Assembly: GCA_964593705.1 (NCBI GenBank)
Contig: CAZQIV010000022.1
Span: 1,416-65,415, forward strand
Source of the DNA: an uncultured Lentimicrobiaceae bacterium
Lineage (GTDB): Bacteria > Bacteroidota > Bacteroidia > Bacteroidales > 4484-276
Length of the DNA stretch: 64,000 nucleotides
Direction of reading: 5' to 3'
A program made the translations under genes and the position numbers. Below are positions 1 through 12,761 of this stretch, piece by piece; position 1 is the stretch's first letter; each line of letters begins with the position of its first letter. The notes beneath the pieces were generated by a model that was given only the letters and a program-made list of their open reading frames with translations, had not been told where the DNA came from and made no database searches.

Positions 1-1034
1 CCATTTTTGGATGGTTTGGCCTGGATCATGTATCGCCGTTAAGCACTAACCTTTATGGAATGTTATGTATTTTTTTGGTTGTAGGTGCGTTTATTGGCGC
101 CCTGTTTTCAAAAGAGTTTGCGCTCAGGATACCACCCAAAGGTGAATTAATTAAGGGTTTCATTGGGGGTAGCTTAATGGCTGTTGGTGCTACACTTGGT
201 TTAGGCTGTACTATCGGATCATTTTTTAGTGGTTTGCCGGCTCTCTCGGGAGGGGCAATTATTTTTAGCATTGGATTGTTCCTTGGTGTAATTATCACTT
301 TGAAATACCTGATGTGGGAGCTGGAACATCGTCCACAGTTCAGCACAGGAAAAAGTTACATCTTCCTGGCCGTTTCGGGCAAAAAGGGTACCTGGCAAAA
401 ATGGCTTGGCTGGTTTGCGTTGCTTATTACCTTTATTGTTGCCTACCGTTACTCGGGTAGCAATCAAACCATGGCCTGGTTCATCATCATCGGAATGTTG
501 ATGGGTCTTATTTGTCAGCGCGCCAGATTTTGTATTGTCAAGGCCTTTCGCGATCCCTTTATGACCGGGGAAGCAGACGGATCAGTTGGCGTAATGGCAG
601 GCCTGATGATTGGCTTATTCGGGTTTACAGCCATTAAATACTTTGGCATTGGTGCCGGCGACATGGCATTACGTACCAGGGAAATGACCTGGGTGTTCCC
701 ACATTTCTTTTTCAGAGCAGCAATAGGTGGATTTATTTTCGGGCTGGGAATGACTTTAGCCGGAGGTTGCGCCGTTGGTACGCTTTGGAGGGTTGGCGAA
801 GGACAAGTAAAACTATGGGCTTCAGCTTTGGGTTTTCTACTCATTTCACCCATATCAAAGCTCTTTATCGTCCCTCCCATTGTGGATGCACTTCCACATT
901 GGCTTGATTTCAAAAACTACTTACCCGATTATATCGGATACACAGGCGCATTTGCGCTTATCACGACTATAATCATGCTCTGGTATGTGTTTGTGAAATG
1001 GAACGAAAAAACAGGAAAATTCAGCGCTTATTAA
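1..1034 (+). CDS. YeeE/YedE-family sulfur-compound (thiosulfate-type) transporter, 5' end outside window
   Basis: The frame is open from nt 3 through the listed ATG at 60, so the gene likely starts upstream. Polytopic membrane protein with family-typical Cys motifs GLGCTIGS, RARFCIVKAF and LAGGCAVGT. Confidence 0.8.
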   Translation, partial: IFGWFGLDHVSPLSTNLYGMLCIFLVVGAFIGALFSKEFALRIPPKGELIKGFIGGSLMAVGATLGLGCTIGSFFSGLPALSGGAIIFSIGLFLGVIITLKYLMWELEHRPQFSTGKSYIFLAVSGKKGTWQKWLGWFALLITFIVAYRYSGSNQTMAWFIIIGMLMGLICQRARFCIVKAFRDPFMTGEADGSVGVMAGLMIGLFGFTAIKYFGIGAGDMALRTREMTWVFPHFFFRAAIGGFIFGLGMTLAGGCAVGTLWRVGEGQVKLWASALGFLLISPISKLFIVPPIVDALPHWLDFKNYLPDYIGYTGAFALITTIIMLWYVFVKWNEKTGKFSAY

Positions 1035-1039
1035 TTTGT

Positions 1040-1549
1040 ATGAAATCATTTATATCAAGAATTATGAGAAAACCAATATACCTGATACCTGTCCTTATCC
1101 TGGCAATGGCTTGCAACGGAATATACGAAAACGGGAAAGAGTTGGCAATGGATCTGAAATTTAGTGTAAATCAAATTTCAGTTGAAGACCTCAAAGTAAA
1201 ACTTGAAAACGATGAAGCATTCTACCTCATTGATGTACGGACAAATGCTGAATATGAGGAAGGATTCATCAACGATAAGTATGATTTCAACACCTATTTC
1301 AAACCGGTAATCCTTCCACTTGGTATTCTGGAATTTAAAATTGATGATCCGATTTACTGGGAGGATTTTTATGAAGATGTCCCCGAAAAAGAGTCAACCG
1401 AGATTGTCATTTACAGCCAGAACGGCGACCGTGGACTCCTGGCAGCCAACACTTTGCTTCAACTCGGATATAAAAATATTAGTAATCTTGATGGTGGCTA
1501 TGATAAATGGCTATCGCTTATTGGAAAAACTGAAGGAGCTGGAGAATAA
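1040..1549 (+). CDS. Rhodanese-like domain lipoprotein (canonical active-site Cys replaced by Ser)
   Basis: Signal peptide with lipobox LAMAC (alternative ATG at 1064). Rhodanese motifs FYLIDVRTNAEYEEGFI, IVIYSQNGDRG and LDGGYDKW. The loop position that normally holds Cys reads Ser. Confidence 0.75.
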   Translation: MKSFISRIMRKPIYLIPVLILAMACNGIYENGKELAMDLKFSVNQISVEDLKVKLENDEAFYLIDVRTNAEYEEGFINDKYDFNTYFKPVILPLGILEFKIDDPIYWEDFYEDVPEKESTEIVIYSQNGDRGLLAANTLLQLGYKNISNLDGGYDKWLSLIGKTEGAGE

Positions 1550-1585
1550 TTGAAAGCCGTGGAGATAAATAGTTATCCATACAAA

Positions 1586-2116
1586 ATGAATAAGAACATG
1601 AAAAATAATCATACAAGCTATATTAAATCCTACCGGGAGCTGGGTTTATTTATCGGATTATTCCTGTTTCTTTTAACAGGATGTGAACAGAAAATTCACT
1701 ATCAAAGTCTGGATGAAATGGTCGCAGATGCGAAATCAAGCGTAAGTTCTATTTCGGTTGAAGAATTCAAAACATTATTGGATTCAGGCAAGGAAATTAA
1801 GATTGTCGATTGTCGCCAGGGTGAAGACTTTATCGAAGCACATATCCCGGGAGCTGTAAATGTTTCGCGCGGAATGATCGGGTTTTCCGATGACTTAAGT
1901 AACAGAAGGGATGATATCTATATCTATGGTTACATTGATGGATGTTCAGCGCTTGCCGCTAAGACGCTTCATAAATTAAAATACAAACAAGTAAAAATGG
2001 TCGAAAACGGATGGGATGGATGGCAAAAAACATTTCCCGAAATTTTTGAAGAAGGAGGCGATGGATCCGTGAAAAAAGAAGCACCTGTTATAGAATCGGG
2101 TGGCTGTGGAGGATAA
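1586..2116 (+). CDS. Rhodanese-like domain lipoprotein with C-terminal GGCGG tail
   Basis: The ORF-track start at 1550 is TTG; the first ATGs are at 1586 and 1598. Lipobox LLTGC. Rhodanese motifs IKIVDCRQGEDFIEAHIPGAVNV and IYIYGYIDGCSALAAKTL. The protein ends ESGGCGG-stop (nt 2099-2116). Confidence 0.75.
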   Translation: MNKNMKNNHTSYIKSYRELGLFIGLFLFLLTGCEQKIHYQSLDEMVADAKSSVSSISVEEFKTLLDSGKEIKIVDCRQGEDFIEAHIPGAVNVSRGMIGFSDDLSNRRDDIYIYGYIDGCSALAAKTLHKLKYKQVKMVENGWDGWQKTFPEIFEEGGDGSVKKEAPVIESGGCGG

Positions 2117-2215
2117 TTTAATGTTCGTCATTGAAGTAACAAAAACCTGATTGACGATTTATGATTAACGATTAACGATTTATGATTGCAGATGTAATAA
2201 ATACTTAACGTAATA

Positions 2216-2363
2216 ATTTAGGTGGAGCTATTATTTACCAAATTCTTATGACCCCATCCCCGACCCTTCCCCTCGAGGGGAAGGGAGACCAGCCGCACAA
2301 ACGACTGCAGTAGCCAGTGTGGTAGCATTCTCCCCCTCAAGGGGGAGTTAGAGGGGGTCAATG
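2216..2363 (+). repeat. Structured intergenic repeat, ATGACCCC family, copy 1
   Basis: Shares termini (taggtgg...accaaat..tATGACCCCatcc ... gagttagagggggtcaatg) with the reverse complement of 56443-56580. Shares core architecture with 51091-51179. Contains the perfect palindrome cccttcccctcgaggggaaggg and the hairpin ccccctcaaggggg. Confidence 0.8.
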
Positions 2364-2444
2364 ATAGAAGCCACATGATTAGATTTGATAGTAAGTTGCT
2401 AAATAATTACTACTTAACAATACAAACAATAAAAATAAAAAATT

Positions 2445-2858
2445 ATGGCAAAATTATGCATGGGACTATTCTCAGGTGGTCTCGACAAATTAACAGCTGC
2501 AGGAGTTATTCTAAGTGGTGCAGCAGCCGATGATATGGATATTGAAGTTTTTGTACTGCTCCAGGGAGCACGTGCATTTCTTAAAGGCAACGAAAACAAA
2601 ATCGACAATGTAGCTGAAGCTACTCATTTAAAAGAGGAATTTATCAAATCATTAGAAAAGCTGAATGTATCAACGTGGTACGAATTCTTTTCGATGGCGA
2701 AAGAGATGACCAACGTAAAGGTACACATCTGCAGTCTTGCCGGAAAAATTTGGGGTGGTGAAAAACTTGACGACTTCAACGACTTGGTGGATGACCTTTG
2801 TGGTATTGGCGAATACCTTACTTCCGCCGAAGAATCAGACATTCATATTTTTGTATAA
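2445..2858 (+). CDS. DsrE/DsrF-like sulfur-relay family protein
   Basis: 137 aa, N-terminal GLFSGGLDKL and VHICSLAG Cys motif typical of DsrE-like (COG2210-type) proteins. Sits directly upstream of a TusA gene. Confidence 0.65.
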   Translation: MAKLCMGLFSGGLDKLTAAGVILSGAAADDMDIEVFVLLQGARAFLKGNENKIDNVAEATHLKEEFIKSLEKLNVSTWYEFFSMAKEMTNVKVHICSLAGKIWGGEKLDDFNDLVDDLCGIGEYLTSAEESDIHIFV

Positions 2859-2877
2859 ATCTTAAAATTTAAACATC

Positions 2878-3129
2878 ATGACACAAGAAGAATTAAAAGC
2901 AATTAAAGTTACTAAAATTGTAGATGCAAGAGGAACGGCATGCCCGGGACCTCTACTGGAAGCAAAAAAAGCCATCGGCACCATTGCATCAGGCGAAATT
3001 ATGGAAATACTCTCAGCCGATGAAGGCACAAAACGCGATATCCCAAAATGGGCAGGCAAAAAAGGGCACGAATATCTCGGAACAGTCGAGGAGTCGGGCT
3101 ACTTTAAAATCTATCTCAAAAAGGGCTAA
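2878..3129 (+). CDS. TusA/SirA-family sulfurtransferase
   Basis: 83 aa with the signature DARGTACPGPLLEAKKAI (CPxP motif). Confidence 0.85.
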   Translation: MTQEELKAIKVTKIVDARGTACPGPLLEAKKAIGTIASGEIMEILSADEGTKRDIPKWAGKKGHEYLGTVEESGYFKIYLKKG

Positions 3130-3135
3130 GCCGCG

Positions 3136-3528
3136 ATGGAAACGACTAATTCTGCTCCCAAAATACTTGTATTTTCAACGGAAAAGATTTCAGACCCCGC
3201 TATTGATTTAGCGGGATTACTGAAACAACATTATCCACCTACGGTGCTTACTGTAAATGTCCCTTGTTCGAGTGCAATTAAGCCCAGGTGGATACTCCAT
3301 GCTTTCGAAAAAGGTTTCGATGGAGTTTTCATTGCAGCAGATGGAACAGATTGTTCATTTAGCGAAAGCTGTACCGAAAAAACCGGGGAATTGGTAGGCA
3401 TCACCCATAAATTGATGGAGAAAAAGGGCATTGAACCTTCCCGCCTGAAAATGGCGGCAATATGTTCAGTCTGCTCCGAACCTTTTGTGAAACACATGAA
3501 AAATTTTGTAACTGCCCTATCTGCTTAA
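3136..3528 (+). CDS. MvhD/FlpD-like hydrogenase iron-sulfur (delta) subunit domain protein
   Basis: 130 aa. Cys pattern VPCSS, DGTDCSFSESC and AICSVCS, and FDGVFIAADGTDC, typical of MvhD-type proteins that partner HdrA. Confidence 0.7.
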   Translation: METTNSAPKILVFSTEKISDPAIDLAGLLKQHYPPTVLTVNVPCSSAIKPRWILHAFEKGFDGVFIAADGTDCSFSESCTEKTGELVGITHKLMEKKGIEPSRLKMAAICSVCSEPFVKHMKNFVTALSA

Positions 3529-3583
3529 AACTGGCGACATTATTCGGAAAACGATTTTCTCAACATAAAACGGCCAATAAAAC

Positions 3584-4876
3584 ATGACAAAACCAAACAA
3601 ATTTGATGCTTTAGTAATTGGAGGAGGTATTGCCGGCGAGGAGGCTGCATTAAACCTTGCTAACCTCGGCTACAGTGTGATCCTTGTCGAAAAGGATTAT
3701 TCGCTGGGAGGCAAAATGATACATCTCAGCAAGGTGTTTCCTACCCTCGATTGTGCGGCATGTATTACCACACCAAAGGTCTCGGAAACATCCAGACACC
3801 CAAACATTACAATTTACACACATTCAGTAATCGAAAACATTGTAAAGCACAGCGAAAACAATTTTACGGCCAACCTGGTTGAAAAGCCAAGGTATGTTAC
3901 CAGCGATTGCACCGGGTGTCAGCTATGCGAGGACAAATGCCCGGTTGTGGTTGATGACCAATATCAATACGACCTGGTTGGGAGAAAAGCTGTTTACGTT
4001 CCCTTTAGCATTGCTAATCCAAGGATTGCGGCCATCGATATCGACAACTGCATTTTGTGTGGTGCTTGCGAGAAAGTGTGCCCGGCGAATGCCATCGACT
4101 TTTCGCAGGAGGATATAGTGACTGAAATTAACGTTGCTTCTGTAGTTTTTGCTACTGGTTTTAAACTTTTCGATCCTACCCTTATTCCGCGTTATGGTTT
4201 TGGTAAGTTTAAAAATGTGCTTACTGCAATGCAGATGGAGCGACAGTTGGTTCCTACCAGGCCCTTCAATACAGTGTTGCGTCCCAAAGACGGCAAGATG
4301 CCGGATAACATCGCCTACGTGCTTTGTGTCGGTTCCCGCGATGAAACCGTGGGGAATCCGATTTGCTCGCAGGTGTGTTGCATGTATTCAACCAAACAGG
4401 CTCAACTTTTAATGGGTGCCTTGCCTATGGCCGATGTTACCATTTACTATTTGCATGTCAGGGCTTTTGGGAAAGGGTTTTGTGAATTTTACCAGCAGGC
4501 CAAAGGAATGGGCGTTGAATTTGTTAAAGCCAAAATTGGAAGAATCGATGAAAAAGAAGATGGGAATCTGCTGTTGAGGTACGAGGATTTCGAAGATGGT
4601 AAGGTTAAAGAAGCAGAACATGATCTTGTGGTATTATCGGTAGGGATTTTGGCCAATACCGATTTTTCGGGCATGTTCAAAAATGAAGCTATCAAACATG
4701 ACGATTTCAATTATATCAAACAGATTGATGAATTATGTTGTCCGGCAAAAACCAGCGTAGACGGTATTTTTGTTGCAGGCACAGCATCCGGGCCAATGGA
4801 CATCCCCGATTCAATACTCTCGGCCGGCGCAGCATCGGCTGAAACAGCAAGCTATATAAGAGGAGGTAAAAAATGA
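3584..4876 (+). CDS. HdrA-like FAD/FeS oxidoreductase, QmoA-like
   Basis: FAD fold VIGGGIAGEEAALNLANLG. Two ferredoxin motifs CTGCQLCEDKCP and CILCGACEKVCP. HdrA-type CSQVCC. The ~430 aa size matches QmoA-type proteins. Confidence 0.8.
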   Translation: MTKPNKFDALVIGGGIAGEEAALNLANLGYSVILVEKDYSLGGKMIHLSKVFPTLDCAACITTPKVSETSRHPNITIYTHSVIENIVKHSENNFTANLVEKPRYVTSDCTGCQLCEDKCPVVVDDQYQYDLVGRKAVYVPFSIANPRIAAIDIDNCILCGACEKVCPANAIDFSQEDIVTEINVASVVFATGFKLFDPTLIPRYGFGKFKNVLTAMQMERQLVPTRPFNTVLRPKDGKMPDNIAYVLCVGSRDETVGNPICSQVCCMYSTKQAQLLMGALPMADVTIYYLHVRAFGKGFCEFYQQAKGMGVEFVKAKIGRIDEKEDGNLLLRYEDFEDGKVKEAEHDLVVLSVGILANTDFSGMFKNEAIKHDDFNYIKQIDELCCPAKTSVDGIFVAGTASGPMDIPDSILSAGAASAETASYIRGGKK

Positions 4877-6807
4877 AAAGTAAAATTGGCGTTTACATTT
4901 GCCAGTGTGGTTCCAATATTTCCGATTATGTAGATGTGGATAAGGTGAGCCAGATTGTAGAGCAGTTGGAGGGTGTGGAGCTTTCGAAAATAACCATGTT
5001 TGCGTGTGCCGATTCCACACAGCAAGAAATGGTAAGCGACATAAAGGAAAAAAAACTTGATGCTATGGTTGTGGCATCATGTTCACCCAAACTGCACCTC
5101 GACACTTTCAGGAACGTAGCCATCAGGGCTGGTTTAAACCCATACAATTATGTGCAGGTTAACATACGCGAACAATGCTCGTGGGCACACTCTGATAAGC
5201 CGGCTGAAGCAACTGAAAAAGCAATTCGGCTAATCAAAAGCGGCATCGCCAGGGTTAAATATTCTCAGGCTTTAACAAAGATGACCATTTCGGCAGTAAA
5301 TGTAGTGGTAGTTGTAGGCGCCGGAATTGCCGGGATGCGTGCCGCCATCGAACTCGCTGATATGGGGTCGTACGTGTATTTGCTCGAAAGGGAATACTTT
5401 GTCGGTGGCCGCGCAGCACAATGGAACGAATTATTCACGACCAATGAAACCGGACGTGAAGTGATTACCAAACTCTACAACAAAATCATGGGGTACGACA
5501 GGATCACTCTTTTTACCGGGGCTGAAATTATTTCGAGTAAAGGAAGTGTGGGTAATTTTGATATACAGGTAGAAATAAAAGCGAGGCATATCAAACCAAA
5601 TTGCAAGCTTGATTGGGACAAATTTAAAAAAGCAGTTGATGTTTGTCCGGTTGAATTTGATGACCCGTTTAATTTTGGGCTCACAAAGCAAAAGGCGATT
5701 TACAAAAATTACCCAAGTGAGTTTCCGAAAATTCCTGCTATCGATACCGAGCATTGCACCAGATGCGGCAAATGCGTAGATATTTGTGACAAGATTGACC
5801 TGGATCAAAAAAATGAAATTGTAACTATTACGGCCGGCGCATATCTTTTAGCTACAGGCTTTGATCCTTATGAGCCTAAAAAAGGCGAATTTGGATACCA
5901 TGAAATCGACAATGTGGTAACACTTCAACAACTTAAACGAATGATTGAGTTGAATGAAAATGAGTTGATATACCACGGGGAAAAAATTAAAAACATCGCT
6001 TACATCTATTGTGTAGGAAGCCGTCAGTCGAAAGGAGAAAATAAATACTGCTCACGCTATTGTTGTAGTTCGGCCATTCACACAGCCATCCTGATTAAAG
6101 AAAAATATGCTGGAATAAATAACTTCCACTTTAACCGGGGCATCAGGACGTATGGTAAACAGGAGCTGCTTTTCAAACAAGCTTCAACCAATGGTGATAT
6201 TTTCCTTCAGTCGTTTGAGGAGGATCCCCCTTCGATTGAAAAAGTAAATGGCACAACCAGGGTTAAAATTAACGATTTCCTAACCCAGGGAATGGAATTG
6301 GAAACTGAAGCCGACCTGGTGGTGCTGGTAACCGGAATGGTTCCACGTCAGAAGGACACTATCGGAAACATCCTGAAAGTACCCATTGGGCGCGACAAGT
6401 TTTATAACGAAATCCATCCCAAACTTCGTCCCGTAGAAACAGTGATTGATGGGATACACATTGCAGGTGCATGCCAGGGACCGAAAAACATCACCGAATC
6501 GGTAAACTCAGCATTATCCGCCGCAGTCAAAGCCGACTCATTGGTAGGCAAGGAAAAAATTGAACTTGAGCCAACCATGGCTAAAATTGATCCGGGTTTA
6601 TGCGTATGGTGCGACAAATGCGCCGCGGCCTGTCCCTACGATGCAATTACTAAAAGTGATAAAAATGGTAAGGCTATAGCAGATGTTAACAGCGCAAACT
6701 GCAAAGGATGCGGAATGTGTCTGCCGGTTTGCCCGGAAAATGCAATACAACTTATTGGCTATACCGATGTCGAAATGGAAAGTATGATCGAAGCATTGGT
6801 ATCGTAA
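4873..6807 (+). CDS. HdrA-like FAD/FeS oxidoreductase, QmoB/HdrA-like
   Basis: Start overlaps the upstream stop (ATGA). N-terminal IGVYICQCGSNI domain, FAD fold VVVGAGIAGMRAAIELADMG, CSRYCCSS, and three CxxCxxCxxxC motifs (CTRCGKCVDIC, CVWCDKCAAACP, CKGCGMCLPVCP). Confidence 0.8.
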   Translation: MKSKIGVYICQCGSNISDYVDVDKVSQIVEQLEGVELSKITMFACADSTQQEMVSDIKEKKLDAMVVASCSPKLHLDTFRNVAIRAGLNPYNYVQVNIREQCSWAHSDKPAEATEKAIRLIKSGIARVKYSQALTKMTISAVNVVVVVGAGIAGMRAAIELADMGSYVYLLEREYFVGGRAAQWNELFTTNETGREVITKLYNKIMGYDRITLFTGAEIISSKGSVGNFDIQVEIKARHIKPNCKLDWDKFKKAVDVCPVEFDDPFNFGLTKQKAIYKNYPSEFPKIPAIDTEHCTRCGKCVDICDKIDLDQKNEIVTITAGAYLLATGFDPYEPKKGEFGYHEIDNVVTLQQLKRMIELNENELIYHGEKIKNIAYIYCVGSRQSKGENKYCSRYCCSSAIHTAILIKEKYAGINNFHFNRGIRTYGKQELLFKQASTNGDIFLQSFEEDPPSIEKVNGTTRVKINDFLTQGMELETEADLVVLVTGMVPRQKDTIGNILKVPIGRDKFYNEIHPKLRPVETVIDGIHIAGACQGPKNITESVNSALSAAVKADSLVGKEKIELEPTMAKIDPGLCVWCDKCAAACPYDAITKSDKNGKAIADVNSANCKGCGMCLPVCPENAIQLIGYTDVEMESMIEALVS

Positions 6808-6845
6808 TCGGTTGTTTTAACTGAAACAGCATATCGAAAGGAAAA

Positions 6846-7118
6846 ATGGAAAAGACAATAGATATTATCAAAGAAAAAAGGACAGTTCCCGAAGCGCTTA
6901 AAAGCAGGGTTAAAGAGGTAAACAAAATTAAGAGAGCGATAAAAAACGCACTGAAGGAGGAGCCTAAAACCATACCGCAGATTGCTCAGGAAACAGAACT
7001 TCCCCAGGACATAATTACTTATTACCTGATGACAATGAGGAAATTTGGAGAGCTTGAAACTGATGAGATTGATGATATGGATGAATACTTTACGTATAAA
7101 TTAACCACTAAGAAATAA
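6846..7118 (+). CDS. Small acidic hypothetical protein, possible winged-helix fold
   Basis: 90-aa ORF tightly packed between the two flanking cluster genes. The segment PKTIPQIAQETELPQDIITYYLMTMRKFGELE looks HTH-like. No recognised family. Confidence 0.4.
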   Translation: MEKTIDIIKEKRTVPEALKSRVKEVNKIKRAIKNALKEEPKTIPQIAQETELPQDIITYYLMTMRKFGELETDEIDDMDEYFTYKLTTKK

Positions 7119-7123
7119 GCATA

Positions 7124-8275
7124 ATGTCGAAAATTAATCCGGGCTTTGCAAATGAACTTAAGGAATTCGGGGCACTAGATTTCAATGCCTGTTACAACTG
7201 CGGCAATTGCACGGCAGTTTGTTCCCTGTCGGATAGCGACAATTCCTTTCCCAGAAAAATGATACGCTACAGTGTTTTGGGTTTGGAAGATGAAATACAG
7301 GCCTCTGTAGATCCATGGCTGTGCTATTACTGTGGCGAGTGTAGCGAATCCTGCCCGAAAGGTGCTAATCCGGGAGAATTGATGATGTCGCTGCGAAGAT
7401 ACCTGACCTCAAAATACGACTGGACCGGTTTGGCAGGAAAATTATATACTTCAAAAGTTTGGGAGTTTGGTACTATTATAGTTTTAGCAGCTGTGATCCT
7501 GCTACTGTTCGTAGTTTATCATGGCCCGATGACAACAGAATTAACATCCGAAGGCGGAGTAAAACTCAACACTTTTGCGCCCTGGAAACAGGTTGAAATA
7601 GGCGATTGGATCATGGCGGGTTTACTATCCTTTTTCCTGGTTACAAACATTTTTAATATGTACTTAAAAATGATCTGGAAGGATAAAACACTAAAAATTC
7701 CAATAAAGATCTACTTCAAAGAATTCTGGAAAATAATCCTGCATTTTTTCACCCAATGGCAATTCTCGAAATGCGACAGCCTTGAAACTAAAAAATCATT
7801 TAATATAAGTACCTACTGGGTAATCCACTTTTTGTTGATGACGAGTTATGTACTGATGTTTACATTGATCGTGGTTTTCCTGGGTTGGTTTCAAACAGAC
7901 AACATCTACGCCTGGTGGCATCCTCAAAGACTTTTGGGTTACTATGCAACCATTGGACTAACCTTGGGTGTTGTTTACTTTTTTTATGAACGATTAAAGA
8001 AAAACAACGAAAAAAGCAAACACTCCCACATCACCGACTGGACATTTTTAGTGCTTCTTTTTCTTACTACCATCTCAGGAATCCTGGTTCATATTTTTAG
8101 GATTTATGGGATGCCATACGAAACTTACTACATGTATGTTTTCCACATCATGGTGCTTTTCCCAATGCTGATGATTGAGGTACCTTTCTCCAAATGGTCA
8201 CATCTGGCGTACAGGCCGTTTGCAATTTATTTTAATACGGTAGCAAATGCTGCCAGGAAAATAGCCTTAAAATGA
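7124..8275 (+). CDS. Membrane FeS subunit, QmoC-like (HdrC-like di-cluster domain fused to a multi-TM HdrE/NarI-like domain)
   Basis: N-terminal CYNCGNCTAVCS and CYYCGECSESCP motifs followed by about six hydrophobic helices containing conserved His residues. 383 aa. Confidence 0.7.
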   Translation: MSKINPGFANELKEFGALDFNACYNCGNCTAVCSLSDSDNSFPRKMIRYSVLGLEDEIQASVDPWLCYYCGECSESCPKGANPGELMMSLRRYLTSKYDWTGLAGKLYTSKVWEFGTIIVLAAVILLLFVVYHGPMTTELTSEGGVKLNTFAPWKQVEIGDWIMAGLLSFFLVTNIFNMYLKMIWKDKTLKIPIKIYFKEFWKIILHFFTQWQFSKCDSLETKKSFNISTYWVIHFLLMTSYVLMFTLIVVFLGWFQTDNIYAWWHPQRLLGYYATIGLTLGVVYFFYERLKKNNEKSKHSHITDWTFLVLLFLTTISGILVHIFRIYGMPYETYYMYVFHIMVLFPMLMIEVPFSKWSHLAYRPFAIYFNTVANAARKIALK

Positions 8276-8324: not shown

Positions 8325-8720
8325 ATGAAAAGCAATAAAAGCAGCTACGCACTTTTAACAACATTGATGTTTCCGTATGAAAGGATTTTTATATGTGGAA
8401 CCATGATGGAAGCCGGAATTAAAACCTGGTCGGAAGAGTGTATTTGTGATGCTGAAAATCCATTTTTCGAAGGTCGCAGTCCTTTGATTAACATTTATGT
8501 AAACAGCCAGAATTTTGCAATGGCATCCAGAATTTTAGGAAAGACAAAATGCTATAAACGTTTCAGGGTTGACACATACTGCGACCCGGAGATAAAAGAT
8601 CAGGTCATCGCTCCCCGCAACACAGACAGGAAGATTTGCAGATATTGTTTTTTTACATGGCTCGTTTTGTTTGGTTCGGTAGTAGCCAGCATTCTTAGGT
8701 CGGTACACTTTTCGATTTAG
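8325..8720 (+). CDS. Hypothetical protein
   Basis: The ORF-track start is TTG at 8298; the first ATG is at 8325. No recognised motif, so coding status is uncertain. Confidence 0.3.
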   Translation: MKSNKSSYALLTTLMFPYERIFICGTMMEAGIKTWSEECICDAENPFFEGRSPLINIYVNSQNFAMASRILGKTKCYKRFRVDTYCDPEIKDQVIAPRNTDRKICRYCFFTWLVLFGSVVASILRSVHFSI

Positions 8721-8729
8721 TGTCAAAAC

Positions 8730-8809
8730 CTAACTTGGACAAGCCAAAACCAAACAAGGTAATCATGTAAAACTTATGGTGTATTCCTGTTTTGGTTTGT
8801 CCAAGTTAG
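8730..8809. other. Long imperfect stem-loop
   Basis: ctaacttggacaagccaaaac...(loop)...gttttggtttgtccaagttag, with 13 plus 7 paired bases, just after the end of the sulfur cluster. Confidence 0.6.
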
Positions 8810-8903
8810 TCGGCAAAATTTATAAATGCATATTTTGCAATTAAGAGCTTTATTATTACTCTTCATTTCATAATAACGACAATGCATTTTAAATTTTGCT
8901 TGG

Positions 8904-8958
8904 GTATCTTATCTCTAATATTCTGCCAAAAAATGGCAGAATATTAGAGATAAGGTAC
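8904..8958. other. Near-perfect 21-bp stem hairpin with AAAAA loop
   Basis: cttatctctaatattctgcca (8908-8928), aaaaa, then tggcagaatattagagataag (8934-8954). Confidence 0.8.
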
Positions 8959-8995
8959 TAATCCTGACCAAGAAAACACTTAATTCGATAACCTT

Positions 8996-9150
8996 GGGTT
9001 GTAAACCCTTCCCTTCAGTCGAGGGTTATAAGCCCGGCCTGGGTTCACAGCCCCTCCCAAAGATAGGGATGCCAATGTCAGAGGCACGAAGGGGATGGCT
9101 CCCCCGAGATATTTGCAAGTCAGGGTGTGACTTTAAGTCACGCCCTGACT
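8996..9150. repeat. REP-like units plus AGTCAGGG hairpin element
   Basis: gggttgtaaaccc...gggttataagccc and gggttcacagcccc...ggggatggctccc resemble the REP units at 12665-13765. They are followed by the hairpin agtcagggtgtgactttaagtcacgccctgact. Confidence 0.7.
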
Positions 9151-9176
9151 AACACCAGATTCACACCCTGACTTTT

Positions 9177-9536
9177 TTAAACCTCCTCCTGCTCTTGGTA
9201 AAACTTATCTCTCAATCTGAAAGTTAAGTCGTTTATTAAGTCGGGGTCGGGTTTTTCGGGGAGTGATGATTTTTCAAAAGCTTTTTCCATTTCATGTTTT
9301 TTGGAATCTGCCATTTTAAGCAATTCCATAAATCGGCCGAACTCATAAAAAACAATGTCGTTGGTTTCGTTATTTACCTGGGGCATATAGTCCAGACCAT
9401 AGTAGCATTTTTTGGGCAATAGAAAAACCCCTTTAATATCCGTGTCCGAACCTGGAGTTTCCAATCCATAAGCCCGGCTGCCACTTATACATTCAAGAAT
9501 GATTAATCCTTTATCTCTTATCTCGTCTATGGTCAT
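9177..9536 (-). pseudogene. Nucleotidyltransferase (GSxxYG...SDxD type) fragment, internally deleted or truncated
   Basis: N-terminal ~70 aa (ECISGSRAYGLETPGSDTDIKGVFLLP...FYEFGRFMELL) match a predicted nucleotidyltransferase family that I recall as normally about twice this length. The remainder diverges. Flanked by REP clusters. Confidence 0.5.
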
Positions 9537-9720
9537 GACTTTGTAAGTGTTTTTCTGAAAAATGAATTTAAATCTTCAATCTGTGCTAAATACTTTTTAA
9601 TTTTTTCTTTCATGGGATTTGAATAGATGTTTTTTTCTTTCATTTTTTCTTCAATAAACAAAGATAAGCCTTATTTAAGATTTCGAAGGATTTCTGATTG
9701 CACACCAAGTAAAAGGGTTT

Positions 9721-9797
9721 ACGGTTCTGAGACACGAAGGGATGGACTTCCTGAGATAGTTGCAAGTCAGGGTTTGACTTAAAGTCAAACCCTGACT
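9721..9797. repeat. Degenerate REP unit plus AGTCAGGG hairpin element
   Basis: cacgaagggatggacttcctgagatagttgcaagtcagggtttgacttaaagtcaaaccctgact parallels 9085-9150 and 12520-12574. Confidence 0.7.
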
Positions 9798-9987
9798 ATC
9801 ATAAGGTACAAAGGAATCTCAACCCTGAAATTTAAAATCACAATCTGCGATTTCAAGTTTTTCAATGTGTTCCAAAATTCCCCCGATTCGTTGATGAAAT
9901 TTCCCGATCTGTTGATTTTCTTTTTTAGTCGATACATTAATTGCCACTTTTGATGAACATTTAAAAAGACTCAAATACATTTATAAC

Positions 9988-12507
9988 ATGAAAACACGAA
10001 ACTTTTTTTTGATTTTAATCTTTGGCATTACGAGCACAGTATTTGGCCAAGGTTTTTATGACATCAACACCATCAACACCATCAAAATCACTTTCGAAGA
10101 ATCCAATTGGGATTACCTGCTCGACCAGCTTGTGTCAGCAGGAAATAAAGACCGCCTGATGGGTTCTGTTGCCATCAACGGGCAGGTTTTCGACAGCGTG
10201 GGCGTACGTTACAAAGGAAACAGTTCCTATCGGGCCAATCAAATAAAAAATCCATTGAATATCAAACTTGATTACATTATTGATGATCAGGAGATAGAAG
10301 GCTATGGAACCCTGAAACTGGCCAATGTATATAAAGATCCCAGCTTTGTTCGCGAAGCGTTAAGTTACGAAATTGCCCGGAAATACATGCCAGCCAGCCA
10401 GGCCAATTACACCAATGTATATGTAAACGGAACCCACCTCGGGCTTTATACCAGTGTTCAGGATGTGGATAAATTTTTTATGCGTACGCATTTTGGTGGC
10501 GATGAAACCGTAAGAGTTAAAGGTGAAATTGAAAGTAACGCCATGCCCGGGCAAATGGGTGGTGTTTGGGAATATTATGGTACCGACACAACAGATTATT
10601 ACGATTACTACGCAATGGAGTCGGATCATGGATGTGCAAAACTGGTAGAATTTATCGACACACTCAATAACCACAACACCTATGTTGATCAGGTGTTGAA
10701 CATCGACAGGCACTTATGGTTTTTAGCTTTCCAAAATCTTTTGGTAAACCTCGATAGTCCCATCAACAACCCGCAAAACTATTACCTTTTTGAAGATGGC
10801 ACCGGCAGGTTTAATCCCATTCCCTGGGATTTGAACGAAAGTTTTGGGGTGTTCACTACTTTGCAAAGTGGTGGAAATCTCAACCCCTATCAATTGCAAC
10901 ACCTTAGCCATGTTGTAAATCTCACCAATAGTGAATATCCTGTTATTCGCAAAATTTTGAGTGATGATACCTATCGCCTTATGTATGTTGCACATATAAA
11001 AACCATGCTCGAAGACAATATTTCTAATGGATAGTACGAAACCCGCGCCCTGGAAATTCAGGATATCATCGATTCGGATGTGCAAAACGACCCCAATAAA
11101 TTTTATAGCTATTCTAATTTTATCAGCAATATACATAGTAGCACCGGTGGTGGAGGTTGGCCACCATCTCCTGGCATAATTGGCATAACGCAGTTGATGG
11201 ATACCCGCGCCAGTTGGCTATCCGGTTTGTCCGAATTCCAGGCGCAAGCCCCGGAAATTACAAATATAAGTTACAGCCCGGAAGTTGTAAGCCCCAACAC
11301 CGAGCTTTGGTTTTCTTCAACAGTAAGTTCTGCAAACCAGGTTTATTTGGCTTATCGCCAGAGTTCTACGGCTGCCTTTCAAAAAGTTGAGATGCTCGAT
11401 GATGGCAACCACAACGATGGGAATGCCGGCGATGGCGTTTATGGTGCATCCATTGTGGCAGGAAGTTCTGATATTCAATATTATATTTATGCCGAAAATA
11501 ACAGTGCAGCAGCTTTCTCTCCACCCAATGCCGAATATGAATTTTATTCGATAGAAATCAACAGCACTTTGGTTATCAACGAATTTATGGCCGATAATGA
11601 AAGTGCAGTAGCCGACCAGGATGGTGAGTACGACGACTGGGTGGAAATATTTAATACCGGAGCATCGGCATTGGCGATTGGTGGATACTATTTGAGCGAT
11701 GATGCTTCGGAACCAGAACAATGGACATTTCCTGATACCACCATTGCTGCCGGGGGCTACCTGGTGGTTTGGGCCGATAACGATGAAGAACAAGAAGGTC
11801 TGCATGCCAATTTTAAACTTTCCAAATCGGGCGAAAGCATCATCATGTCCAACCCTGCCTTGAGCATTGTGGATGAATATTCCTTCGTCGAGCAAATTAC
11901 AGATAGTACCACAGGACGGTTTCCAAACGGTACCGGCGATTTTGTAATAATGCCCCCAACTTTTGGGGCAGAAAATCAAAGTTTAATAAATGCATATCAA
12001 ACCATCACCATGCCAGATGGCTGGAGTGGAATTTCATCCTGCCTTGAGCCTCTCGATGGCATGGTTGAAAATATGTTTGATGTGTTGACCAACGAAGACG
12101 ACCTGATAATTTTGCAGAATTTTTTCGAGGTATATTGGCCTGCTGCTAATTTGAACACCATCGACCAAAATGGTGGCTGGGATTCAAAGAGTGGATATAT
12201 GCTTAAAGTAGATGGAGATCAGCAAATCGTTATCGAAGGAACATATATTGCCGACAAAACGCTGACTTTTGATGAAGCCGGGTGGTATCTGATTCCGGTA
12301 TTAAGTAATTGTAATGTGTCGGTAAACGAATTATTCGAAGATGTTGTGGATGATCTTGCTATTATTAAAGAAGTGGCCGGTATAGGTATTTATTGGCCTG
12401 GAGTAGTGCAAACGCTGTATTCTCTGGAACCCGGAAAATCGTACCTCGTAAAATTTGATGGCCCGGTGTCAGTTACTTTTCCCGAATGTACAGATGATAC
12501 AAAATAG
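9988..12507 (+). pseudogene. CotH kinase-family / lamin-tail-domain protein paralog interrupted by an in-frame TAG (11032-11034)
   Basis: ORFs 9988-11034 and 11080-12507 share one frame (both nt mod 3 = 1). Together they are colinear with the intact paralog 13927-16200. The TAG aligns with a Trp codon (ENGWYEE) of the paralog. CotH-type core LNIKLDYIIDDQEIEGYGTLKLAN...VNGTHLGLYTSVQDVDKFF. LTD motif LVINEFMADNESAVADQDGEYDDWVEIFN. Confidence 0.8.
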
Positions 12508-12541
12508 TCGGTAAAAATAGGAATCCCCAGAGAAAATTGTA

Positions 12542-12574
12542 AGTCAGGGCGTGACTTTAAGCCACACCCTGACT
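12542..12574. repeat. AGTCAGGG hairpin element, third copy
   Basis: agtcagggcgtgactttaagccacaccctgact lies directly after the stop of the CotH pseudogene, possibly acting as a terminator. Confidence 0.7.
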
Positions 12575-12664
12575 GTGTTAAAGTTAAATGTTAGGTTTAA
12601 TGGTAGGATCGGGAAATCGGTTTTGCCTTTTTTTTGGTTTATCCAGGCTTGCTATCCCCGCTTT

Positions 12665-12706: not shown

Positions 12707-12761
12707 GTTTGAAAAGTGCATGTGCATTTTTTTTTATTTTTATACGCTAAATCTTGAAAAG

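What the first reader, a model, noticed from the sequence alone, without database searches (positions are those of the whole stretch)
1..8275. Sulfur-relay module joined to a Qmo/Hdr-like quinone-linked flavin-FeS complex in a Bacteroidota background
Seen in sequence:
- Eleven co-directional, tightly spaced genes: YeeE (three conserved Cys motifs), two exported rhodanese-like lipoproteins, DsrE-like, TusA (CPGP), MvhD-like, a 430-aa HdrA-like protein, a 644-aa HdrA-like protein (ATGA start/stop overlap at 4873), a 90-aa ORF, and a membrane protein with two CxxCxxCxxxC motifs plus about six TM helices.
- No APS reductase, sulfate adenylyltransferase, Dsr or Sox genes lie in the 8 kb that follow.

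Established knowledge:
- YeeE/TusA import and bind thiosulfate-derived sulfur.
- DsrE/TusA/rhodanese relay persulfide sulfur to cytoplasmic Dsr or sHdr systems in sulfur oxidisers.
- YeeE-TusA-DsrE (YTD-type) clusters have been linked to sulfur disproportionation.
- QmoABC (two HdrA-like subunits plus an HdrC/HdrE-like membrane subunit) is known as the menaquinol link to APS reductase.

Inference: here the relay may hand a protein-bound persulfide or thiosulfonate directly to a Qmo-like complex that exchanges electrons with the quinone pool. I do not know of such a combination being characterised.

Deviations from canonical Qmo: the MvhD-like domain is a separate upstream gene instead of the QmoB C-terminus, and an extra small ORF sits between the B-like and C-like genes.
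Basis: partly seen in the sequence, partly recalled or inferred. Interest (0 to 1): 0.75.

Follow-up and report, generated by a model that had tools for sequence, protein, structure and literature searches.

The report
Sulfur-carrier-linked Qmo-like membrane redox complex
A Bacteroidales operon joins a sulfur import and carrier chain to a quinone-linked flavin/iron-sulfur membrane complex related to Qmo and Hdr; the pairing recurs in at least six phyla and apparently has not been described, so it probably marks an unstudied way for anaerobes to exchange electrons with zero-valent sulfur.

Summary
The window has 10 co-directional genes, not 11. YeeE is cut by the window edge. The operon starts upstream with a YeeD-like TusA and a divergent Fnr/Crp regulator. 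No apr, sat, dsr or sox genes lie within 9 kb upstream or 56 kb downstream.

Comparison of 80 related loci shows two uses of the same QmoA/QmoB/QmoC-like module:
- Type 1, as here: 41 loci across Bacteroidota, Krumholzibacteriota, Chloroflexota, Verrucomicrobiota, Planctomycetota and Desulfobacterota. All carry TusA, by the classification criterion. A DsrE-like gene is present in 37 of 41 and the 90-aa winged-helix ORF in 36 of 41.
- Type 2: 26 loci, wired to a canonical MvhD plus [NiFe] hydrogenase. None has a sulfur-relay gene.

The Type 1 "MvhD" has lost the canonical [2Fe-2S] cysteines and gained an invariant C-terminal CxxC. The lipoprotein rhodaneses carry a SoxY-like GGCGG tail.

Best reading: a menaquinone-linked, possibly electron-confurcating oxidoreductase that acts on TusA/DsrE-bound sulfane sulfur, probably reducing it to H2S. 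The QmoC-like protein scores below NCBI's QmoC cut-off. The complex fits the published "type II Qmo", whose function is open. I rate it a new variant of a known kind. The mechanism is inferred, not shown.

The parts
1..1034 (+). YeeE/YedE-family sulfur transport membrane protein. This is the 3' part; the gene starts 180 bp before the window and the full protein is 404 aa.
   Evidence: PF04143, E=1.6e-39. The frame is open to base 3. Full gene at L001 2697-3911. Best NCBIfam match is selen_YedE_FdhT at 133 bits, then TsuA at 99 bits; both are below their cut-offs.
1040..1549 (+). Rhodanese-like lipoprotein 1 (169 aa), a degenerate copy. It has Ser at the catalytic Cys position and its tail reads TEGAGE instead of GGCGG.
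   Evidence: PF00581, 54 bits. Gene call. Alignment with 13 homologues. An alternative ATG lies at 998.
1598..2116 (+). Rhodanese-like lipoprotein 2 (172 aa). It has lipobox Cys29 and invariant Cys72 (DCR), but no Cys at the canonical catalytic position. A disordered linker leads to a C-terminal ESGGCGG tail that resembles the SoxY carrier arm.
   Evidence: PF00581, 61.6 bits. All 13 database homologues end in SGGCG(G). In the AF2 model, residues about 40-148 are confident and residues 151-169 have pLDDT below 50.
2117..2444 (.). 328-bp intergenic gap with GC-rich palindromes, including a perfect 11+11 palindrome at 2264-2285. It is probably an inserted repeat element or an internal regulatory region.
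   Evidence: The palindrome occurs once in the window. In relatives the equivalent gap is about 50-70 bp. The consensus scan found no terminator there.
2445..2858 (+). DsrE-like sulfurtransferase (137 aa) with one family-wide invariant Cys (HICSLAGK).
   Evidence: PF13686, 32 bits. Alignment of 37 homologues from several phyla.
2878..3129 (+). TusA sulfur carrier (83 aa) with the conserved motif VDARGTACPGP.
   Evidence: PF01206, 81 bits. 47-88% identical across phyla, always directly upstream of the MvhD-like gene.
3136..3528 (+). MvhD/FlpD-fold protein (130 aa) of a distinct subfamily. The canonical CNWC and GC cysteines are lost and an invariant C-terminal CxxC (AAICSVCS) is gained.
   Evidence: PF02662, 97.7 bits. 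Alignment to PDB 5ODC_D. Type 1 versus Type 2 alignment. Among 150 representatives, none has both Cys patterns.
3584..4876 (+). QmoA-like HdrA paralogue (430 aa). It has the FAD domain, Cys194/Cys197, an inserted 2x[4Fe-4S] ferredoxin domain and the Cys386/399/403/404 cluster. It lacks the N-terminal domain and the C-terminal ferredoxin domain.
   Evidence: NCBIfam HdrA2 451 bits, below its cut-off. 364 bits to PDB HdrA. Cys-column analysis.
4873..6807 (+). QmoB-like HdrA paralogue (644 aa). It has the N-terminal cluster domain, the FAD domain without Cys194/197, a reduced inserted domain and a C-terminal 2x[4Fe-4S] ferredoxin domain. No MvhD domain is fused to it.
   Evidence: 456 bits to 5ODC_A over residues 3-642. 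Cys-column analysis.
6846..7118 (+). Conserved 90-aa Cys-free winged-helix protein with an acidic DDMDEYY tail. It may be an accessory subunit or a small regulator.
   Evidence: Present in 36 of 41 Type 1 loci. AF2 pLDDT 87.7. Foldseek hits to MarR, ArsR/SmtB, BigR and Z-alpha folds at E about 2e-3. Weak HTH_5 match.
7124..8275 (+). QmoC-like membrane subunit (383 aa). An HdrC-like 2x[4Fe-4S] domain is followed by six TM helices with conserved His133/235/302/323/341/360, which are candidate heme b ligands.
   Evidence: NCBIfam qmoC NF038018: 210.7 bits over the full length, against a cut-off of 300. Motifs and hydropathy. Invariant columns.

Best explanation
The operon encodes a membrane-bound, menaquinone-linked HdrA-type flavin/iron-sulfur oxidoreductase. 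It is a QmoABC-like, probably 'type II Qmo', complex. Its redox substrate is sulfane sulfur carried on the cysteines of TusA and a DsrE-like protein, not APS reductase or a hydrogenase.

Proposed path:
1. Periplasmic lipoprotein rhodanese-like carriers with a flexible GGCGG tail pick up zero-valent sulfur from polysulfide, S0 or thiosulfate.
2. The YeeE/YedE channel, with its YeeD-like TusA encoded just upstream of the window, brings the sulfur into the cytoplasm.
3. The sulfur passes to the DsrE-like protein and the second TusA as a persulfide.
4. The TusA persulfide reacts with the invariant CxxC of the MvhD-fold subunit, which docks on the QmoB-like flavoprotein. This releases H2S.
5. The oxidised site is re-reduced through the FAD and FeS chain of the QmoA/QmoB-like heterodimer. 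The electrons come from menaquinol via the QmoC-like cytochrome b/FeS subunit. A low-potential donor such as ferredoxin probably contributes at the C-terminal ferredoxin domain (flavin-based confurcation).

Shown here: gene content, motifs, and conserved synteny specific to this architecture. Inferred: every chemical step, the direction, and the quinone and ferredoxin partners.
For: Domains and architecture:
- All ten proteins have the expected domains.
- The A/B heterodimer split and the QmoC-like HdrC-plus-cytochrome-b fusion match the published description of QmoABC (PMC3333476).

Synteny:
- 41 Type 1 loci come from Bacteroidota, Krumholzibacteriota, Chloroflexota, Verrucomicrobiota, Planctomycetota and Desulfobacterota.
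- TusA is adjacent to the MvhD-like gene in all 41, which was the criterion that defined Type 1.
- A DsrE-like gene occurs in 37 of 41 and YeeE in 10 of 41, including three Chloroflexota loci.

Contrast with the sister architecture:
- 26 Type 2 loci use the same module with a canonical MvhD plus [NiFe] hydrogenase and hyp genes. None has a relay gene.
- So the position occupied by the hydrogenase in Type 2 is occupied by the sulfur carriers in Type 1.
- One MAG carries both types (L003 and L028).

Type 1-specific chemistry:
- The MvhD-fold protein lost the CNWC and GC cysteines. These are kept in Type 2 and in PDB 5ODC_D.
- It gained an invariant CxxC in all six phyla.
- The HdrA-like subunits show no Type 1-specific cysteine.

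Carrier cysteines:
- A single invariant Cys in the DsrE-like protein.
- CPGP in TusA.
- A GGCGG tail on a disordered linker in the rhodaneses. GGCGG is the sulfur-binding arm of SoxY (PMC6067878).
- YeeE-YeeD imports thiosulfate (PMC11073785, listed).

Direction and context:
- An import module that delivers S(0)-level sulfur, with no sulfite-forming catalyst in the operon, favours reduction to sulfide. No CCG/HdrB, DsrAB, Apr or Sox domain was found.
- No apr/sat/dsr genes lie within 9 kb upstream or 56 kb downstream.
Against: - No subunit is a known S-S-cleaving catalyst. HdrB and DsrK CCG domains are absent. The CxxC role is a hypothesis from conservation alone, and the motif could instead help to bind a metal cluster.
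- From textbook redox potentials, menaquinol (about -75 mV) alone cannot reduce a persulfide (about -200 to -270 mV). The model therefore needs an unverified low-potential co-donor.
- YeeE and rhodaneses accompany only the closest Bacteroidales loci and a few Chloroflexota loci.
- The full-length YeeE scores best against a selenium-associated YedE model, at 133 bits and below its cut-off.
- Rhodanese 1 in this window is Cys-less.
- All loci are from MAGs, so no physiology, expression or biochemistry is available.
- The rest of the genome could not be searched for apr or dsr genes.
Confidence: 0.5

Rival explanations
1. Same complex and same carriers, but working oxidatively. Sulfide or sulfane sulfur is oxidised on TusA/DsrE. 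The electrons are bifurcated by the HdrA-type flavin to menaquinone (high potential) and ferredoxin (low potential). This would be a cytoplasmic alternative to sulfide:quinone reductase that also makes reduced ferredoxin.
For: - The sister Type 2 cluster most plausibly runs donor (H2) to menaquinone plus ferredoxin, and Type 1 swaps only the donor module.
- From textbook values, the S0/HS- couple (about -270 mV) lies midway between menaquinone and ferredoxin.
- The QmoB-like subunit keeps the C-terminal ferredoxin domain.
- Qmo works in both directions in nature (PMC13490349).
Against: - An importer and periplasmic carriers for S(0)-level sulfur make little sense if S(0) is the product.
- There is no enzyme in the operon to take sulfur on to sulfite.
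- The reaction would be close to thermoneutral.
- Hosts are mainly fermentative anaerobes. This host assignment rests on general knowledge and was not tested.
Confidence: 0.2
2. The Qmo-like complex is a general ferredoxin/NAD(P)H:menaquinone or other redox module. The neighbouring TusA/DsrE/YeeE genes serve sulfur assimilation, detoxification, or maturation and regulation of the complex, and are not its substrate.
For: - TusA and DsrE-family proteins have many roles.
- YeeE/YeeD is an assimilatory thiosulfate importer in E. coli (PMC11073785).
- A variant carries an NAD(P)H-binding insertion in the A subunit.
- The 90-aa winged-helix protein could be regulatory.
Against: - TusA sits immediately upstream of the MvhD-like gene in all 41 Type 1 loci across six phyla, and in none of the 26 Type 2 loci.
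- The only Type 1-specific change in the redox proteins is a new thiol motif in the subunit encoded next to TusA.
- The NAD(P)H variant keeps its DsrE-like and TusA genes.
Confidence: 0.15
3. Ordinary Qmo function. The complex serves an APS reductase encoded elsewhere in the genome, and the relay genes are bystanders.
For: - QmoC is the best NCBIfam match, and JGI names a 76%-identical homologue QmoC.
- Type II Qmo serves sulfate reduction in Vulcanisaeta and Ammonifex (PMC10504309).
- The rest of this genome was not searchable.
Against: - The qmoC score is 210.7 bits against a cut-off of 300, and 195-227 bits for all relatives, including those in Desulfobacterales.
- No apr/sat genes lie in the about 73 kb examined on this contig.
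- No relay homologue or shared gene family with an apr-like layout appears beside the complex in any of the 80 loci, although most flanking ORFs there were not annotated.
- The relay synteny is conserved.
- Type II Qmo also occurs in organisms without Apr or Dsr.
Confidence: 0.05
4. The system handles selenium rather than sulfur. It would import selenium through a YedE/YedF-like pair and reduce it on the carriers.
For: - The full-length YeeE scores best against the selenium-associated YedE/FdhT model.
- Both TusA proteins give secondary hits to YedF models.
- The rhodaneses hit a 'rhodanese-related (seleno)protein' model.
Against: - All these scores are far below the curated cut-offs (133 against 350; 38.6 against 79).
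- TusA models score higher than YedF models.
- No selD, selA or other selenium-utilisation genes lie nearby.
- The GGCGG tail and the DsrE Cys are classical sulfur-carrier features.
Confidence: 0.05

Closest known systems
QmoABC, the quinone-interacting membrane-bound oxidoreductase of sulfate reducers and some sulfur oxidisers, including the 'type II Qmo' of Neukirchen et al. 2023 (PMC10504309)
   Same: - Two HdrA paralogues with the A/B division of domains.
- A membrane subunit that fuses an HdrC-like 2x[4Fe-4S] domain to a six-helix cytochrome b-like domain.
- An MvhD-fold module is present.
- Like type II Qmo, the HdrA-like subunits are very close to methanogen HdrA (456 and 364 bits).
- Type II is reported in organisms with or without Apr and Dsr, and its role is left open.
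   Different: - There is no aprBA/sat linkage.
- The MvhD-fold module is a separate upstream gene, has lost the canonical cluster cysteines and has gained a CxxC.
- An extra 90-aa winged-helix gene lies between the B-like and C-like genes.
- QmoC scores below NCBI's equivalog cut-off.
- The complex is constantly linked to TusA and DsrE-like genes.
MvhADG-HdrABC of methanogens, and the hydrogenase-linked 'Type 2' Qmo-like clusters found here in Bacteroidota and Ignavibacteriales
   Same: - HdrA-type flavoproteins.
- An MvhD-fold adaptor.
- Ferredoxin-type domains suited to flavin-based electron bifurcation.
- Type 2 shares the QmoC-like subunit and the A/B design with the window's complex.
   Different: - There is no hydrogenase and no HdrB/HdrC catalytic pair.
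- The adaptor lacks the canonical [2Fe-2S] ligands.
- The partner module consists of cofactor-less sulfur carriers.
sHdr (sulfur-oxidising heterodisulfide-reductase-like) system with its TusA/DsrE3/rhodanese cascade (PMC11094781)
   Same: TusA, DsrE-family and rhodanese sulfurtransferases are genetically tied to an HdrA-containing complex in the cytoplasm.
   Different: - No HdrB1/B2 or HdrC1/C2 (CCG) subunits and no LbpA.
- The complex is membrane- and quinone-linked through a QmoC-like subunit.
- The HdrA subunits are full methanogen-type proteins rather than the short sHdrA. PDB 6TJR matches at only 73-147 bits.
- The hosts are anaerobic heterotroph lineages.
DsrMK(JOP) with DsrC trisulfide
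   Same: In concept only: a menaquinol-linked membrane complex of the Hdr family that reduces sulfur bound between cysteines of a small carrier protein.
   Different: There is no DsrK/HdrD CCG catalytic subunit, no DsrC, and HdrA flavoproteins are present. The analogy is functional and no homology of the catalytic part is implied.
YTD cluster (YedE-TusA-DsrE plus conserved hypothetical proteins), proposed for sulfur disproportionation (PMC12998232), and YeeE-YeeD thiosulfate uptake (PMC11073785)
   Same: A YedE/YeeE-family channel with an adjacent TusA-like gene and a DsrE-like gene.
   Different: - The conserved hypothetical proteins CHP1-3 of YTD were not identified here.
- A Qmo-like complex and GGCGG-tailed lipoprotein rhodaneses are present instead.
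- The complete YTD cluster is reported only from Desulfobacterota and Nitrospirota.

Membership tests
QmoABC (canonical, Apr-linked) | QmoC: an HdrC-like 2x[4Fe-4S] domain fused to a cytochrome b membrane domain, scoring as an NCBIfam qmoC equivalog (NF038018, cut-off 300 bits) | tested here: not met
   The architecture is met: two CxxCxxCxxxC motifs, six TM segments and conserved His. The score is 210.7 bits against a cut-off of 300. Relatives of both types score 195-227 bits.
QmoABC (canonical, Apr-linked) | Two HdrA paralogues: QmoA without the N-terminal and C-terminal domains, and QmoB with them | tested here: met
   Cys-column comparison with PDB 5ODC_A. The A type keeps C194/C197 and the inserted ferredoxin domain. 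The B type keeps the N-terminal cluster and the C-terminal ferredoxin domain. No bona fide QmoA or QmoB sequences were available for a phylogeny.
QmoABC (canonical, Apr-linked) | MvhD-like domain fused to the C-terminus of QmoB | tested here: not met
   The QmoB-like protein ends after the ferredoxin domain at residue 644. The MvhD-fold protein is a separate gene upstream with an altered Cys pattern.
QmoABC (canonical, Apr-linked) | Genomic linkage to, and interaction with, aprBA (and sat) | tested here: not met
   No Apr or Sat domains in 9 kb upstream or 56 kb downstream, and no apr-like gene layout beside the complex in the 80 related loci. Physical interaction and the rest of the genome were not testable.
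Type II Qmo (Neukirchen et al. 2023) | QmoAB closer to typical HdrA than to bacterial type I QmoAB; occurs with or without Apr and Dsr | tested here: inconclusive
   High similarity to methanogen HdrA and an Apr-free context fit the description.
MvhD ([2Fe-2S] subunit of F420-non-reducing hydrogenase) | FlpD fold with the conserved CxxC (CNWC), MCSG and GC..DC cysteines | tested here: not met
   The fold and family are met (PF02662, 97.7 bits). CNWC is replaced by STEK, and GC is lost. Only the VPCSS and TDC cysteines are kept in Bacteroidota, and not even these in many Chloroflexota.
sHdr sulfur-oxidising Hdr-like complex | HdrB/HdrC (CCG-domain) catalytic subunits and lipoate-binding LbpA next to sHdrA | tested here: not met
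   None of the ten operon proteins hit a CCG, HdrB or lipoyl-carrier family.
HdrABC-MvhADG | [NiFe] hydrogenase subunits MvhA and MvhG, and HdrB | tested here: not met
   Absent from the window operon. Present only in the Type 2 sister loci.
YeeE/TsuA-YeeD/TsuB thiosulfate importer | Scores above the NCBIfam TsuA and TsuB cut-offs; adjacent TusA-like partner gene | tested here: inconclusive
   An adjacent 78-aa TusA-like gene is present. TsuA models give 99 and 70 bits against cut-offs of 400 and 645. A selenium-associated YedE model scores higher, at 133 bits against 350.
YTD cluster | yedE + tusA + dsrE plus at least two of the conserved hypothetical proteins CHP1-3 | tested here: inconclusive
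   The first three are present. No CHP reference sequences were available. The operon has no unassigned genes other than the 90-aa ORF.
SoxY | SoxY fold with a C-terminal GGCGG carrier arm, partnered with SoxZ | tested here: not met
   Only the GGCGG tail is shared. The domain is a rhodanese and there are no sox genes nearby.
Rhodanese (catalytic) | Active-site Cys in the CX4-5R loop | tested here: not met
   Window Rhd1 has Ser (YSQNGDRG) and Rhd2 has Gly (YGYIDGCS). Several orthologues of Rhd1 keep the Cys.

The most novel reading that the evidence does not exclude
A previously unrecognised class of respiratory or bifurcating enzyme. In it, a protein-bound persulfide on TusA is the direct substrate of a menaquinone-linked HdrA flavoprotein complex, and a remodelled MvhD-fold subunit (cluster ligands replaced by a CxxC) is the thiol/persulfide reaction site. 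This would give fermentative Bacteroidota, Anaerolineae and others an energy-coupled way to respire, or draw electrons from, zero-valent sulfur without molybdoenzymes. It would also show that the 'third partner' port of Qmo-type complexes is modular: Apr, hydrogenase or sulfur carrier.
Probability: 0.3. Interest if true: 0.85.

Novelty: new variant of a known kind. Interest (0 to 1): 0.72.

Why it matters
- qmo-like genes are used as markers of sulfate reduction in metagenomes. This family scores as QmoC/HdrA (JGI names one homologue QmoC) yet sits in lineages and contexts without Apr, so it can cause false calls.
- The role of QmoB and its MvhD domain, and the 'third partner' of Qmo, has been open since 2012 (PMC3333476). 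Type II Qmo outside sulfate reducers is explicitly flagged as unexplained (PMC10504309). The Type 1 / Type 2 contrast found here gives a concrete, testable answer: the same module is plugged into either a hydrogenase or a TusA/DsrE relay.
- If the complex reduces sulfane sulfur, abundant sediment and digester heterotrophs gain a role in sulfur cycling that is currently unaccounted for.
- The GGCGG-tailed lipoprotein rhodaneses suggest a SoxY-like carrier principle outside the Sox system.

Tried and rejected
- **Phylogeny against bona fide QmoA/B/C.** Not possible. I used NCBIfam cut-offs and domain and Cys architecture instead.
- **Type 1-specific cysteines in the HdrA-like subunits**, as a possible sulfur-accepting site. 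None found.
- **The 90-aa ORF as a DsrC- or DsrD-like sulfur protein.** It has no Cys. The model is a generic winged helix with only weak Foldseek matches. Its function is left open.
- **The ArsR-type regulator upstream of Chloroflexota Type 1 loci as a SqrR/BigR-type persulfide sensor.** The best PDB match is the 6O8K-6O8O series (SqrR, from memory). Its two conserved Cys do not align with the sensing Cys positions there, so I do not use it as evidence.
- **The palindromes in the 2117-2444 gap as copies of the REP-like array at 13.4 kb.** No similarity.
- **Rfam scan of the window.** No match at gathering thresholds.
- **Promoter and terminator scans.** At chance level.
- **Literature.** Eight full-text searches found no description of a TusA/DsrE-Qmo-like operon. 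Non-open-access reviews could not be read, for example Tanabe et al. 2019 on TusA and Appel et al. 2021 on HdrA modules.

Full report
**1. What is in the window**

The first 8.3 kb holds ten co-directional genes on the + strand:
- a YeeE/YedE-family membrane protein (1-1034);
- two rhodanese-domain lipoproteins (1040-1549 and 1598-2116);
- a DsrE-like protein (2445-2858);
- TusA with a CPGP motif (2878-3129);
- an MvhD/FlpD-fold protein (3136-3528);
- a 430-aa HdrA-like protein (3584-4876);
- a 644-aa HdrA-like protein (4873-6807), whose start overlaps the previous stop (ATGA);
- a 90-aa ORF (6846-7118);
- a 383-aa protein (7124-8275) with two CxxCxxCxxxC motifs and six hydrophobic segments.

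The YeeE frame is open to base 3. The same contig was found in public data (ENA ERZ27317826, k141_487724, 103 kb). There the gene is 404 aa. It is preceded by a 78-aa TusA/YeeD-like gene and a divergently transcribed Fnr/Crp-family regulator.

Intergenic distances run from an overlap to 55 bp. The exception is a 328-bp gap (2117-2444) with GC-rich palindromes, which relatives lack.

**2. Surroundings**

- The 9 kb upstream of the window encodes hybrid histidine kinases, a PRK-family kinase, an outer-membrane beta-barrel protein, DUF4136, AAA_14/DUF4143 and the Fnr/Crp regulator.
- The 56 kb downstream encodes CotH/LTD proteins, a LytS/LytTR two-component system, CoA-transferase, aminotransferase and thiolase genes, RND and cation efflux systems, a multicopper oxidase, T9SS-tailed proteins and a TonB-dependent receptor.
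- No Apr, Sat, Dsr, Sox, Psr or Phs domains were found.
- The T9SS sorting domains and the organism names of the closest homologues support a Bacteroidales origin.
- GC content of the operon (0.41-0.43) is unremarkable.

**3. The redox proteins**

- Both HdrA-like proteins are strongly similar to methanogen HdrA: 456 bits for the 644-aa protein and 364 bits for the 430-aa protein against PDB entries.
- I compared cysteine columns with 5ODC_A.
  - The 430-aa protein keeps Cys194/Cys197, both clusters of the inserted ferredoxin domain, and Cys386/399/403/404. It lacks the N-terminal domain and the C-terminal ferredoxin domain.
  - The 644-aa protein keeps the N-terminal cluster, Cys386/399/403/404 and the C-terminal 2x[4Fe-4S] domain. 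It lacks Cys194/197.
  - This is the QmoA/QmoB division of labour described for QmoABC (PMC3333476).
- The 383-aa protein matches NCBIfam qmoC over its full length. It scores 210.7 bits against a curated cut-off of 300.
- All relatives tested score 195-227 bits, including one from Desulfobacterales.
- The PDB holds no Qmo entry, so I could not build a reference phylogeny.
- Neukirchen et al. 2023 describe a 'type II Qmo' that is closer to HdrA, occurs with or without Apr and Dsr, and has an unresolved role (PMC10504309). The present complex fits that description. Neither the main text nor the held supplements of that paper mention TusA or MvhD.

**4. Neighbourhood conservation**

The QmoC-like protein has more than 5,790 database homologues. 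The top 120 are at least 65% identical and are mostly Bacteroidota MAG proteins. A scan of 185,579 species genomes gave at least 598 matches, and I kept 80 loci. I mapped the window proteins onto them and clustered their ORFs. Two architectures emerged.

Type 1 is the window's architecture: [DsrE-like]-TusA-MvhD-like-A-B-(90-aa ORF)-QmoC-like.
- It occurs in 41 loci, counting the window's own contig. They come from Bacteroidales, Krumholzibacteriota, Chloroflexota (Anaerolineae), Verrucomicrobiota, Phycisphaerae and Desulfobacterales.
- I classed a locus as Type 1 when it had TusA and an MvhD-like gene upstream of QmoC. TusA in all 41 is therefore true by definition.
- A DsrE-like gene is present in 37 of 41. 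It lies upstream in Bacteroidota and directly downstream of QmoC in Chloroflexota.
- The 90-aa ORF is present in 36 of 41.
- YeeE is present in 10 of 41, including three Chloroflexota loci.
- Rhodaneses are present in 8 of 41.

Type 2 has the order Fnr/Crp-A-QmoC-like-B-MvhD-[NiFe] small subunit-large subunit-protease, with hyp genes nearby.
- It occurs in 26 loci, mostly Bacteroidales, plus Ignavibacteriales and a Methanoperedens variant.
- None of the 26 has any relay gene.

Further comparisons:
- One MAG carries both types (L003 and L028).
- Type 1 A subunits from Chloroflexota are 48-52% identical to the window protein. Type 2 A subunits from Bacteroidota are only about 39% identical.
- In a neighbour-joining tree of QmoC, Type 2 forms one clade next to the Bacteroidota Type 1 clade. 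I treat this tree as indicative only.
- Three loci (L010, L012, L061) have an A subunit with an inserted GltD/NfnB-like NAD(P)H module, and they still keep DsrE-like and TusA genes.

**5. Features specific to Type 1**

- Type 2 MvhD proteins keep the cysteine pattern of the structurally characterised [2Fe-2S] MvhD (CNWC, MCSG, GC..DC).
- Type 1 MvhD-fold proteins have lost CNWC and the GC cysteine. In many Chloroflexota the remaining canonical cysteines are gone too.
- All Type 1 proteins, in every phylum, carry a new C-terminal motif, RL(R/K)xxA(I/V)C(S/T)VC.
- Among the 150 best of 1.84 billion representatives, no protein combines the canonical N-terminal pair with the new CxxC. The counts are 13 with 'N-terminal pair lost plus CxxC' and 29 with 'canonical pair, no CxxC'.
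- The HdrA-like subunits show no Type 1-specific cysteine.
- So the only redox-protein change that tracks the sulfur carriers is a thiol motif in the subunit encoded next to TusA.

**6. The carriers**

- The DsrE-like family has one invariant Cys.
- The TusA next to the complex is highly conserved around ACPGP.
- The lipoprotein rhodaneses share an unexpected feature. After the rhodanese domain comes an acidic, Pro/Ala-rich linker that ends in (S/E)GGCGG. This holds for 13 of 14 sequences in the loci and for 13 of 13 database homologues of rhodanese 2.
- GGCGG is the sulfur-binding carboxy-terminal arm of SoxY (PMC6067878).
- In the AlphaFold model of rhodanese 2 the domain is confident, and residues 151-169 have pLDDT below 50, as expected for a flexible arm.
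- Rhodanese 2-type proteins often lack the canonical catalytic Cys but have an invariant Cys in the DCR motif.
- The window's rhodanese 1 has lost both the catalytic Cys and the tail Cys, so it is probably inactive.
- In some relatives, additional periplasmic tandem rhodaneses and an OprO/P-type porin lie in the cluster.

**7. Interpretation**

- The hydrogenase in Type 2 and the TusA/DsrE relay in Type 1 occupy the same position relative to an otherwise equivalent QmoA/B/C-like module.
- The operon contains an import route for S(0)-level or thiosulfate sulfur. It contains no catalyst able to form sulfite (no CCG/HdrB, siroheme, Apr or Sox domains).
- I therefore favour a sulfane-sulfur (persulfide) reductase. 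TusA persulfide would be resolved at the MvhD-fold CxxC. Electrons would arrive through the HdrA-type flavins from menaquinol via the QmoC-like subunit.
- On thermodynamic grounds (textbook potentials) a low-potential co-donor such as ferredoxin is needed. This is the confurcation scheme proposed for QmoABC-AprAB.
- I put about 0.5 on 'TusA/DsrE-bound sulfur is the redox substrate, handled reductively' and 0.2 on the oxidative, bifurcating version.
- Lower-ranked rivals are a general redox module with bystander relay genes (0.15), ordinary Apr-serving Qmo (0.05) and selenium handling (0.05).
- None of the chemistry is shown. All loci are from uncultivated organisms.

**8. Novelty**

Eight full-text searches found no description of a TusA/DsrE-linked Qmo-like operon, of the CxxC MvhD subfamily, or of GGCGG-tailed rhodaneses. 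Some key reviews are not open access and could not be checked. The component families are all known, and 'type II Qmo' outside sulfate reducers has been noted. I therefore rate this a new variant of a known kind, of clear interest to specialists in anaerobic energy and sulfur metabolism.

Noticed in passing
L021, L026-L028, L031, L033, L037, L040, L041, L044, L045, L049, L050, L052, L053, L057, L058, L060, L065, L066, L068, L071, L074, L075, L077, L080 (around position 8600-16000 of each locus): A sister 'Type 2' cluster: Fnr/Crp, HdrA-like (about 600 aa), QmoC-like, HdrA-like (about 580 aa), canonical MvhD, [NiFe] hydrogenase small and large subunits, a protease and hyp genes. It suggests an H2:menaquinone(/ferredoxin) Qmo-like complex in Bacteroidota and Ignavibacteriales. 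One MAG (CAYXUU01) has both types.
   Followed up: partly
L010 about 5200-7950, L012 5222-7975, L061 about 5250-7950: A variant of the sulfur-linked operon. Its QmoA-like subunit is a 904-939-aa protein with an inserted GltD/NfnB-like module (Fer4_20 + Pyr_redox_2), which implies NAD(P)H as an extra substrate.
   Followed up: partly
window 1598-2116 (and 1040-1549); homologues P0350-P0362: Lipoprotein rhodanese-like proteins with a disordered acidic linker and a C-terminal GGCGG, the SoxY carrier-arm motif. The motif is conserved in 13 of 13 database homologues. The window's first copy has lost both the catalytic Cys and the tail Cys.
   Followed up: yes
window 2117-2444: A 328-bp insertion-like intergenic segment inside the operon, with GC-rich palindromes (a perfect 11+11 at 2264-2285) and a tandem 21-bp repeat at 2148-2188. 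Relatives have only 50-70 bp here. It could be a repeat element or an internal promoter or attenuator.
   Followed up: partly
window 12705-13343 and 13380-13815: An array of GC-rich palindromic units (GGGTTGCGATCC...GGCTGCGAACCC type) next to a 212-aa ORF. The ORF's HxH and Y motifs recall REP-associated/IS200-like tyrosine transposases. Pfam gave no hit at E<=1e-6, so this is unconfirmed.
   Followed up: partly
window 9988-12507 versus 13927-16200: Two CotH/LTD paralogues. The first is split into a 348-aa and a 475-aa ORF, which suggests a frameshift or pseudogene. The second is an intact 757-aa protein with a T9SS sorting tail.
   Followed up: no
L034-L079 (Chloroflexota loci), about 5100-5550: Type 1 operons in Chloroflexota are preceded by an ArsR-family regulator with two conserved cysteines and followed by a LysR regulator on the opposite strand. 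The cysteines do not align with those of the best PDB match (6O8K series).
   Followed up: partly
window 19335-25711: A cupin/HTH regulator, an unassigned 509-aa protein, two CoA-transferase subunits, a class-III aminotransferase and a thiolase in a row. This may be an amino-acid or short-chain acyl-CoA fermentation module.
   Followed up: no
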